Assembly (NCBI GenBank): GCA_963837175.1
Contig: CAWIMJ010000050.1
Location: 64,001-128,000, forward strand
DNA length: 64,000 nucleotides
Source of the DNA: an uncultured Nitrososphaeraceae archaeon
GTDB lineage: Archaea > Thermoproteota > Nitrososphaeria > Nitrososphaerales > Nitrososphaeraceae
Reading direction: 5' to 3'
The position numbers were made by a program, and so were the translations under genes. A model generated the notes under the pieces. The model worked only from the letters and a program-made list of their open reading frames with translations. It was not told where the DNA came from and made no database searches. Shown piece after piece: positions 40,276-40,800 of the stretch (the stretch's first letter is position 1; every line of letters begins with the position of its first letter).

Positions 40276-40800
40276 ATGGATATTCTTTAAGTAATACATC
40301 TGATCCATTGGCAAGAGATTTTTTGGATAATATTATCTTCATTTACTAACATTGCCACGGGAAAATGTCTTTGTCGGGGACTTATATGCCTACAATGATA
40401 AACGTGGCCCTGGTTCTGGTAATATTGTCAATTTTCTTGAACCCCATTTTGCCCTTCCATCTATACATACTTATGAAAGTGTGGCAAGTGTTTATGGACA
40501 GATATCAAATAATATTGAGGCAGGAATATGATTGGATTTCTTGATATCTTTCAAATAGCATTAGGGGGTGTTTTCACAGATATTCAAACCATTTTTGAAT
40601 CGTCAGGTCCACGGTCATAAAATTTCGATTATCCAACCTAACAAGAGATTGGATCGATGTAATGGAGATTGGAAAAGATATCAATAATTATTCAATTAAT
40701 AACAATCATCATGGACTATATGCAAAAGAATACCGCTTTTTTCTTGTTACAGCAGTAATACTTACCAATTCTATTAGCATAATAGCGGACACAGAAAGCA
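40276..40800 (+). pseudogene. Prokaryotic gasdermin relic (frameshifted, truncated)
   Basis: Reconstructed SDPLARDFLDKYYLHLLTLPRENVFVGDLY...ASVYGQISNNIEAGI*LDFL..IALGG...IKFRLSNLTRDWIDVMEIG...RFFLVTAVILTNSISIIAD; collinear with remembered bacterial gasdermin motifs. Confidence 0.7.

What the first reader, a model, noticed from the sequence alone, without database searches (positions are those of the whole stretch)
40276..40800. Hidden gasdermin pseudogene in an archaeal genome
Seen: correcting three frameshifts (~40330, ~40550, ~40617) and reading through TGA 40529 gives SDPLARDFLDKYYLHLLTLPRENVFVGDLYAYNDKRGPGSGNIVNFLEPHFALPSIHTYESVASVYGQISNNIEAGI(*)LDFL..IALGGVFTDIQTIFESSGPRS-IKFRLSNLTRDWIDVMEIGKDINNYSINNNHHGLYAKEYRFFLVTAVILTNSISIIAD. 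Known, from memory: bacterial gasdermins such as the Vitiosangium protein carry DP...Y...LPRE, A.I.GQ....IG..IL, RFEFSNV..D.V....VG and RLYVIT.VI.SN..V.A motifs in the same order and similar spacing. The ORF track shows only the last third. Inferred: this lineage once carried a gasdermin pore-forming defence system. The gene has lost its C-terminal part, no N-terminal palmitoylation Cys is visible, and no activating protease is seen in the window. Intact copies in relatives could define an archaeal pyroptosis-like system.
Basis: partly seen in the sequence, partly recalled or inferred. Interest (0 to 1): 0.85.

Follow-up and report, generated by a model that had tools for sequence, protein, structure and literature searches.

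The report
Dead gasdermin gene in soil archaeon
An ammonia-oxidising soil archaeon carries the broken, truncated remains of a bacterial-type gasdermin (cell-suicide pore) gene; a few related archaea still have whole copies next to activating proteases, so the relic is real, but it is a dead member of a known defence family.

Summary
Window 40271-40802 (+) is the relic of a bacterial-type gasdermin (bGSDM) gene, read in four collinear pieces across three frames.

- **Family match:** the PADLOC bGSDM profile hits two pieces (E 0.0065 and 3.4e-6). A profile of intact homologues from the same archaeal family hits them at 1.3e-12 and 3.4e-11.
- **Closest intact relative:** P0001, 267 aa, on two metagenome contigs, lies directly behind a CHAT protease. 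It is 73% identical in DNA over 510 bases. Its model superposes on the Vitiosangium bGSDM structure 7n51 (TM 0.73).
- **Lesions:** lost start, a 5-base deletion, three 1-base deletions, GGT→TGA at 40529, and loss of the last ~89 codons at ~40802.
- **Not assembly errors:** contigs from four soil studies share these lesions, and some carry extra indels.
- **Context:** no CHAT protease was found in the genome. Of 237 other family genomes, 4 have intact copies and 5 have fragments only. None of 6 same-genus genomes holds the relic.

Verdict: a non-functional relic and a new, dead member of a known kind. Interest is modest; it lies mainly in the gasdermin-protease systems of ammonia-oxidising archaea.

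The parts
40271..40290 (+). Degenerate 5' end. TAA 40271-40273 stands where both intact relatives have their ATG. It is followed by frame-2 codons (P)WIFFK, which resemble the relatives' WQFWK.
   Evidence: DNA alignment A2; frameshift-aware alignment; translations
40290..40291 (+). 5-base deletion relative to the intact relatives (frame 2 to frame 3)
   Evidence: alignment columns 37-41
40291..40328 (+). Frame-3 piece NTSDPLARDFLD (gasdermin N-terminal helix region; profile positions 10-19)
40329..40330 (+). 1-base deletion in an A-run (relatives AAA, window AA); frame 3 to frame 2
   Evidence: column 80. Contigs of X1, X3 and X5 span it with no indel here.
40331..40528 (+). Frame-2 piece of 66 codons (YYLHLLTLPRE...NNIEAGI); profile positions 21-86
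   Evidence: PADLOC bGSDM E 0.0065; family profile E 1.3e-12; 67% identity to P0001
40529..40531 (+). In-frame TGA opposite the GGT (Gly) of the conserved G-L-D-F-L motif
   Evidence: No other letter is listed at this place in any of the 4 runs covering it.
40536..40537 (+). 1-base deletion in a T-run (relatives TTTT, window TTT); frame 2 to frame 1
   Evidence: column 289; no indel here in the 4 runs
40537..40614 (+). Frame-1 piece FLDIFQIALGGVFTDIQTIFESSGPR; profile positions 92-118
   Evidence: Weak alone (E 3.3), but it fills the gap between its neighbours and has the same length as in P0001.
40614..40615 (+). 1-base deletion; frame 1 to frame 3
   Evidence: column 368; no indel here in the 4 runs
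40617..40802 (+). Frame-3 piece IKFRLSNLTRDW...SISIIADTESN; profile positions 120-181. It includes a harmless in-frame 3-base insertion at ~40705-40707.
   Evidence: PADLOC bGSDM E 3.4e-6; family profile E 3.4e-11
40803..40840 (.). Breakpoint zone. Gasdermin homology ends at ~40797-40802 and the genus-conserved block begins at 40841. About 89 codons are missing, including the last core strands and the C-terminal inhibitory peptide.
   Evidence: No profile match beyond position 181 anywhere in 39990-41240 or in the genome.
39998..40270 (.). Species-specific non-coding stretch upstream of the relic, absent from the 6 same-genus genomes. No trace of the CHAT gene that precedes intact relatives. 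40049-40181 has an 80% copy on contig C34.

Best explanation
Window 40271-40802 is a non-functional relic of a bacterial-type gasdermin gene, of the kind encoded directly downstream of a CHAT (caspase-like) protease. In the intact system (shown for bacteria in the literature, inferred here), the protease senses infection and cuts a short C-terminal inhibitory peptide off the gasdermin. The gasdermin then oligomerises into membrane pores and kills the infected cell. In this ammonia-oxidising archaeon the system is dead. The protease gene is gone, the start codon is lost, one 5-base and three 1-base deletions break the frame, a Gly codon has become TGA, and a deletion or rearrangement at ~40802 removed the last third. 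That third carries the last core beta-strands, the cleavage site and the inhibitory peptide. The remaining 530 bases drift neutrally: soil populations share all of these lesions and some have added new indels. Shown: the homology, the lesions, the truncation, the absence of a partner, and the intact relatives with proteases. Inferred: that the gene was once functional in this lineage, and that the archaeal systems work as the bacterial ones do.
For: (1) Family. PADLOC bGSDM hits two pieces collinearly, and this is the only locus in the genome that hits. A profile of 7 same-family homologues gives E 6.8e-15 and 1.1e-9 per genome, and 1.3e-12 and 3.4e-11 locally, with all four pieces in profile order. 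The same profile matches solved bGSDMs: 8sl0 at 7.2e-20, 7n51 at 1.1e-19 and 7n50 at 8.6e-16.
(2) Closest intact relative. P0001 (267 aa) is 67% identical over the 66-aa piece and scores bGSDM E 2.7e-33. DNA identity is 73% over 510 columns, window 40291-40797. Of 164 comparable codons, 111 give the same residue. Its AlphaFold model (pLDDT 72.9, pTM 0.76) matches 7n51 at E 8.1e-18, TM 0.73/0.74, rmsd 2.6, and the hits with E <= 0.001 shown in the listing are gasdermin entries.
(3) Lesions are pinned by the alignment to two intact genes.
(4) They are real. Contigs of X3 (39900-40708, no gaps) and X5 (39900-41158), plus pieces of X1 and X10, come from four different studies. They show no indel at the lesion sites and no other letter listed at the TGA. 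X5 and X1 add +C after 40441, X1 has -1 at 40457, and X5 has +A after 40240.
(5) Partner. A CHAT protease (PF12770, E 8e-30 and 8e-32) ends 27 and 22 bases before the intact genes on L050 and L051. No match to it or to PF12770 was found in the own genome.
(6) Family context. The neighbours of intact or partial copies are Peptidase_C14, pentapeptide-CHAT, TPR-CHAT, subtilase S8 and KAP/NB-ARC/TPR proteins.
Against: The read evidence is Logan contigs, not raw reads, and one of the four runs may be the sample the genome was assembled from. The host of the closest intact relative is unknown, because its contigs are only 2.2-2.4 kb (GC 31.7% against 33.4% for the window). dN/dS of 0.24 against the intact relatives equals the value between the two intact genes. 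So most divergence happened under selection, but this cannot say in which lineage. The stretch 39998-40840 is absent from all 6 same-genus genomes, and its flanks are not neighbours there. The fragment could therefore have arrived already broken. Two of the four pieces are not significant on their own.
Confidence: 0.9

Rival explanations
1. The fragment was never a working gene in this lineage. It arrived by horizontal transfer or recombination as an already truncated piece of a CHAT-gasdermin operon and has only decayed since.
For: Window 39998-40840 is missing from 6 of 6 same-genus genomes. There the RTX block (up to 39997) and the helicase block (from 40841 or 40888) lie on different contigs. 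Homology to the intact operon starts and stops abruptly at 40291 and ~40802, with no trace of CHAT. The family shows patchy presence: 9 of 237 genomes, in 6 of the other 17 genera.
Against: Six separate lesions inside the 530 bases indicate long residence. The degenerate 5' end still aligns to the relatives' first codons, so the 5' break is not inside the gene. Five other family genomes hold fragments in different states of decay, which suggests that in-situ decay is common.
Confidence: 0.2
2. The gene is intact in the organism, and the frameshifts and stop are sequencing or assembly errors of this genome bin.
For: Two of the three 1-base deletions sit in homopolymer runs, AAA to AA and TTTT to TTT, which is typical of some sequencing errors.
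Against: Independent contigs from four studies carry the same state at every lesion. The 5-base deletion, the TGA, the lost start and the missing ~89 codons are not homopolymer errors. Contigs in all four runs bridge the 40802 junction (table 8).
Confidence: 0.02
3. A shortened product still does something, for example the 79-aa ORF 40662-40901 or the 59-aa ORF 40352-40531 acting as a small protein, or recoding by programmed frameshifts.
For: Open frames of 59 and 79 codons with possible start codons exist.
Against: The tail of the 79-aa ORF runs into unrelated, genus-conserved DNA. Populations carry additional frame-breaking indels inside the 59-aa ORF. In the model of the intact relative the pieces lack half of the core sheet, strands 198-236. 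No Pfam family matches the pieces.
Confidence: 0.03

Closest known systems
Bacterial gasdermin of Vitiosangium sp. (PDB 7n51, 8sl0, 9a84)
   Same: It is the best sequence-profile match of the archaeal homologues among solved structures (E 7e-20 and 1e-19). It is also the best structural match of the model of the closest intact relative (TM 0.73, rmsd 2.6 over 231 columns). Size is similar: 263-266 residues against 267-281.
   Different: Only 19% identity in the structural alignment. The Vitiosangium protein is palmitoylated on Cys4 (passages of 10.1101/2021.06.07.447441). The relic and the 6 intact relatives seen here have no Cys near the N-terminus. The window copy is broken and lacks the last third.
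bGSDM-protease operons of Johnson et al. (Runella, Bradyrhizobium and others; caspase-like C14 or CHAT partners)
   Same: Relatives of the relic sit next to CHAT, Peptidase_C14, subtilase or TPR/NB-ARC proteins. This matches the 43 of 50 bacterial gasdermins encoded next to proteases, where CHAT is the commonest partner type (n = 23) (passages).
   Different: The hosts here are ammonia-oxidising archaea. No experiment exists on any archaeal gasdermin (passage of PMC10989679). In the window the partner is absent and the gasdermin is a relic.
Eukaryotic gasdermins (GSDMD, GSDMA3, Trichoplax GSDM)
   Same: The same N-terminal pore-forming fold at a lower score (Foldseek E 1e-5 to 1e-3, TM 0.33-0.43).
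   Different: The eukaryotic proteins carry a C-terminal repressor domain of more than 200 residues. The prokaryotic type has only a peptide of ~20 residues (passage).

Membership tests
Bacterial-type gasdermin (bGSDM, PADLOC PDLC02986) | Significant profile similarity to bGSDM | tested here: met
   E 0.0065 and 3.4e-6 on two pieces; 1.3e-12 and 3.4e-11 with the family profile; 73% DNA identity to an intact bGSDM gene.
Bacterial-type gasdermin (bGSDM, PADLOC PDLC02986) | Uninterrupted reading frame over the whole domain (about 240-280 residues) | tested here: not met
   Lost start, four frame-breaking deletions, one TGA, and only profile positions ~10-181 of 276 present.
Bacterial-type gasdermin (bGSDM, PADLOC PDLC02986) | Gasdermin N-terminal pore-forming fold | tested here: inconclusive
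   Met for the closest intact relative P0001 (7n51 E 8.1e-18, TM 0.73). The relic itself was not folded. It lacks residues ~179-267 and so strands 198-236 of that model.
Bacterial-type gasdermin (bGSDM, PADLOC PDLC02986) | Short C-terminal inhibitory peptide with a protease cleavage site | tested here: not met
   This region is deleted in the window. The intact relatives have it, with a conserved Arg ~25-30 residues from the end (6 of 7 rows, Arg-Gly in 3), also Arg-Gly in P0001. Its role as the cleavage site is inference.
Bacterial-type gasdermin (bGSDM, PADLOC PDLC02986) | Adjacent activating protease (C14, CHAT, subtilase) | tested here: not met
   None among the ORFs of 90 aa or more between 29.7 and 52 kb. 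No CHAT in the window or genome. Met in relatives.
Bacterial-type gasdermin (bGSDM, PADLOC PDLC02986) | N-terminal Cys for palmitoylation (conserved in most but not all bacterial members) | tested here: not met
   No Cys in the N-terminal piece. None in the first ~15 residues of G048, G101, G155, G074, L050 or L051.

The most novel reading that the evidence does not exclude
The intact relatives are working gasdermin-protease suicide systems of soil ammonia-oxidising archaea. They would form pores in an archaeal membrane (by recalled textbook knowledge, largely tetraether lipids) without the N-terminal palmitoyl anchor of most bacterial gasdermins, and would be cut after a conserved Arg near the C-terminus. 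The relic, together with the 5 of 9 other family genomes that hold only fragments, would record rapid gain and loss of a costly system in this one family. The profile found none in 398 genomes of other families of the phylum.
Probability: 0.4. Interest if true: 0.6.

Novelty: new member of a known kind. Interest (0 to 1): 0.3.

Why it matters
The relic itself does nothing, so its value is as a marker. It shows that a CHAT-gasdermin system once sat in, or was transferred into, the chromosome of an ammonia-oxidising archaeon. It also led to intact gasdermin genes with caspase-like, CHAT or subtilase neighbours in 4 of 237 genomes of the same family. The literature held here is inconsistent on archaeal gasdermins. 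One essay calls gasdermins absent from archaeal genomes (passage of PMC11249213). A review and a survey say they occur in a few archaeal taxa, with no experiments (passages). Full-text searches found no paper linking gasdermins to this group: 'gasdermin' with 'Nitrososphaer' gave 1 unrelated paper, and with 'Thaumarchaeo' gave 0. Supplementary tables could not be seen and may list them. Whether a gasdermin can perforate an archaeal membrane, and without the lipid anchor, is an open question that can be tested with the intact operons.

Tried and rejected
- **Pfam:** no family for the four pieces at E <= 10, nor for the intact relatives. PF26164, precomputed for P0001, is not in the local copy.
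- **The search for related loci:** the 7-row alignment was rejected as too divergent. P0001 in genome contigs gave 30 pattern matches but no relative.
- **Middle lesion:** a single -1 shift near 40523 was considered as an alternative to TGA plus shift. Alignments to six distant homologues split 3 to 3. The close relatives settle it in favour of TGA plus a 1-base deletion at 40536|40537, with equal lengths and no gap.
- **Missing 3' third:** searched for downstream in all frames (39990-41240; tblastn) and in the whole genome. Nothing above noise.
- **Same-genus flanks:** searched for gasdermin remains; best E 0.3, which is noise.
- **CHAT remnants in the window:** best tblastn E 4.6, which is noise.
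- **CHAT comparison:** the CHAT of L050 is only 26% identical to the CHAT proteins of G101 and G141, so it gives no clue to the host of L050.
- **Weak family hits:** the hits in G044, G050 and G018 (E 1.4e-5 to 0.006) were not counted as gasdermins. G050's frame looks like a methyltransferase by eye, and G044 is unclear.

Full report
**Observation**

- NTSDPLARDFLD in frame 3.
- YYLHLLTLPRENVFVGDLY...NNIEAGI in frame 2, which ends in TGA 40529-40531.
- FLDIFQIALGGVFTDIQTIFESSGPR in frame 1.
- IKFRLSNLTRDWIDVMEIGKD...SISIIADTESN in frame 3.

The ORF list shows only fragments of 59, 30 and 79 codons.

**Is it a gasdermin?**

- Pfam finds nothing in the four pieces.
- The PADLOC bGSDM model PDLC02986 matches the 66-aa piece (E 0.0065, profile 16-78) and the last piece (E 3.4e-6, profile 103-167), in the right order.
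- In the whole genome (3.81 Mb, 58 contigs, 91.5% complete) this is the only locus that matches.
- The same model finds strong, full-length matches in other genomes of the same family, for example E 2.8e-38 and 4.0e-36.
- A profile built from 7 of these homologues (A1) matches the sequences of solved bacterial gasdermins: 8sl0 at 7.2e-20, 7n51 at 1.1e-19, 7n50 at 8.6e-16 and 7n52 at 2.5e-6.
- That profile scores the window's pieces at 1.3e-12 (positions 21-86) and 3.4e-11 (positions 120-181). The two short pieces fall at 10-19 and 92-118. They are weak on their own, but they sit exactly where they should.
- tblastn with the individual homologues gives 39-43% identity over 77-84 residues.

**The closest intact relative**

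- A search of the large protein collection with the 66-aa piece, restricted to longer proteins, returned one hit: P0001, 267 aa, 67% identical. It scores bGSDM E 2.7e-33.
- Two metagenome contigs encode it at 99% and 90% identity (L050 and L051).
- In both contigs the gene follows a protein of at least 430 aa with a CHAT domain (E 8e-30 and 8e-32), after a gap of 27 bases on L050 and 22 bases on L051.
- At the DNA level, L050 1347-1853 aligns to window 40291-40797 at 73% identity over 510 columns.
- A frameshift-aware alignment of P0001 to the window scores 548, against 47-76 for 20 shuffled queries.
- An AlphaFold2 model of P0001 from a 9-row alignment has mean pLDDT 72.9 and pTM 0.76. Its N-terminus and residues 239-267 have low confidence.
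- The model superposes on the Vitiosangium gasdermin 7n51 (E 8.1e-18, TM 0.73/0.74, rmsd 2.6 Å over 231 columns). The next hits are 7n50 and 7n52, and the hits with E <= 0.001 shown in the listing are gasdermin entries.

**Lesions**

The DNA alignment with the two intact genes places the lesions as follows:
- TAA 40271-40273 stands where the relatives have their ATG.
- 5 bases are missing between 40290 and 40291.
- 1 base is missing from an A-run at 40329.
- TGA 40529-40531 stands opposite GGT (Gly of the conserved G-L-D-F-L motif).
- 1 base is missing from a T-run at 40536|40537.
- 1 base is missing at 40614|40615.
- 3 extra bases, in frame, lie at ~40705.
- All similarity ends at ~40802, about codon 178 of 267.

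The middle shift lies at 40537 rather than ~40550. The lost start and the 5-base deletion are additional lesions. The ATG at 40276 is not the ancestral start.

Alignments to six distant homologues could not decide between 'TGA plus shift' and 'one shift' for the middle lesion; they split 3 to 3. The close relatives decide it, because the segment between the LDFL motif and IKF has exactly the same length as in P0001.

Nothing resembling profile positions beyond 181 exists downstream or elsewhere in the genome. In the model of P0001 the lost part holds strands 198-204, 207-228 and 233-236 and the C-terminal tail.

**Are the lesions real?**

- Eighteen listed DNA runs, all soil metagenomes where the record names an organism, hold at least half of the sampled words of 39900-41300.
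- Logan contigs of four runs from four different studies were laid on the stretch.
- X3 spans 39900-40708 without a gap.
- X5 spans 39900-41158 with three indels, none at a lesion site.
- Pieces of X1 and X10 cover the rest.
- No indel is reported at 40290, 40329, 40537 or 40615, and no other letter is listed at 40529-40531.
- Contigs in all four runs bridge the 40802 junction.
- Some populations carry further frame-breaking changes: +C after 40441 (X5 and one X1 contig), -1 at 40457 (X1) and +A after 40240 (X5). The intact relatives show no gap at 40441, so the extra C is derived. This is what a neutrally decaying sequence looks like.

Two caveats apply. These are contigs, not raw reads, and one run may be the source of the assembly.

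**Surroundings**

- The neighbours are an RTX-type calcium-binding repeat protein (39328-39987), a 76-aa ORF (40947-41177) and an XPB/Rad25-like helicase (41233-42759).
- No protease domain occurs in the 13 ORFs of 90 aa or more, plus that 76-aa ORF, scanned between 29.7 and 52 kb.
- The archaea-specific editing domain of ThrRS at 47527-49473 and an archaeal AmoA elsewhere in the genome (E 2.7e-118) show an ammonia-oxidising archaeon.
- Neither the CHAT protein of L051 nor the Pfam CHAT model matches anything in the genome. tblastn of both CHAT proteins against the window gives only noise.
- All 6 same-genus genomes hold the RTX block up to window 39997 and the helicase block from 40841 or 40888. 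These blocks lie on different contigs, and none holds 39998-40840. Their flanks show no gasdermin remains.
- The tail of the 79-aa ORF (…ILYSELIKIS…) belongs to the genus-conserved block.

The relic therefore sits in a species-specific stretch at a break in gene order, and its 3' end coincides with the edge of that stretch.

**Family context**

- With profile A1, 9 of the 237 other genomes of the family match at E <= 1e-5. Seven of the nine contributed rows to the profile, so they match by construction; G179 and G107 are independent.
- With the independent PADLOC model, 12 of 200 match at E <= 0.01. Three of those are weak and doubtful.
- Four genomes have full-length open frames: G101, G155, G048 and G074.
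- Five hold only fragments: G015 in two frames, G141 in three, G042 and G107 with C-terminal halves only, and G179 with two broken loci. Some of this could be assembly error in draft bins.
- The neighbours are as follows:
  - G048: Peptidase_C14, which also matches the PADLOC 'caspase' model.
  - G101: a pentapeptide-CHAT protein.
  - G141: a TPR protein and a TPR-CHAT protein.
  - G074: a subtilase, which also matches the PADLOC 'subtilase' model.
  - G155: a KAP-NTPase/NB-ARC/TPR protein.
- In a sample of 400 other genomes of the phylum, 398 of them from other families, none matched bGSDM at E <= 1e-8. No genome gave a positive match in that call, so it shows 'not found', not 'absent'.
- None of the six intact proteins has a Cys in its first ~15 residues.

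**History**

- Between the relic and L050, 111 of 164 comparable codons encode the same residue.
- A rough Nei-Gojobori estimate gives dN/dS 0.24 at dS ~0.9. This equals the value between the two intact genes (0.24 at dS 0.14).
- Most of the divergence therefore accumulated under purifying selection, and the time spent as a pseudogene is short by comparison.
- This does not show in which lineage that selection acted. The fragment may have decayed in place, which I favour at about 0.7, or have arrived already truncated, at about 0.2.

**Comparison with what is known**

- Johnson et al. (preprint 10.1101/2021.06.07.447441) described 50 bacterial gasdermins. Of these, 43 lie next to proteases, mostly Peptidase C14 and CHAT, and often fused to TPR, LRR, WD40 or NACHT domains. 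Activation is by removal of a ~20-residue C-terminal peptide. Most have a palmitoylated N-terminal Cys.
- A review (PMC10989679) says gasdermins have been detected in archaea by genomics, but never tested.
- A survey preprint (10.1101/2024.10.26.620412) places gasdermin systems in fewer than 10 archaeal taxa.
- An essay (PMC11249213) calls them absent from archaeal genomes.
- Full-text searches for 'gasdermin' with 'Nitrososphaer' gave 1 unrelated paper, and with 'Thaumarchaeo' gave none.

**Verdict**

The finding is a true gasdermin relic of the known prokaryotic type, dead and without a partner. It is a new and non-functional member of a known kind. The more interesting by-product is that intact gasdermin-protease systems, all without the N-terminal Cys, occur sporadically in one family of ammonia-oxidising archaea, and that more than half of the copies seen there are in decay.

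Noticed in passing
window 41233-42759 (insert ~41443-41588): The XPB/Rad25-like helicase carries an Asn/Ser/Thr-rich low-complexity insert, including a run of nine Asn. The insert does not align to three of the five same-genus orthologues compared.
   Followed up: partly
window 31101-31724, 39328-39987, 46427-47116: Three paralogous RTX-type calcium-binding repeat proteins lie within 16 kb, and the genus holds many more copies.
   Followed up: no
window 40947-41177: A 76-aa ORF with no Pfam family is conserved upstream of the helicase in same-genus genomes (L026 1728-1970).
   Followed up: no
window 40049-40181 and G000:C34:1434-1565 (L053): A 133-base stretch just upstream of the relic has an 80% identical copy on another contig. 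That copy lies between a tyrosinase-like ORF and a transposase-like ORF, both judged by eye. It may be a small repeat element.
   Followed up: partly
run X10, loose end before window 40638 (table 7): One contig joins the window from 40638 onward, but the 84 letters before that differ. The 30 shown read like the intact P0001-type sequence (T-Q-F-I-K-F-R-F-P), which hints at a third, perhaps intact, variant in that soil.
   Followed up: no
L039, L040, L041, L042, L043, L045 (G015, G141, G042, G179, G107): Five of the nine other family genomes with gasdermin matches hold only fragments, frameshifted, stop-interrupted or halved. Decay of this gene appears common in the family, unless draft assemblies are to blame.
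   Followed up: partly
alignment A1 columns 259-270; P0001 residues ~244-246: A conserved Arg lies ~25-30 residues before the C-terminus of the archaeal gasdermins (6 of 7 rows of A1, followed by Gly in 3; Arg-Gly also in P0001). It is a candidate protease cleavage site.
   Followed up: no
L019 6083-9529 (G155): The gene directly upstream of an intact gasdermin encodes an 1149-aa KAP-NTPase/NB-ARC/TPR protein with no recognisable protease domain. The activating protease of this system is not identified.
   Followed up: no
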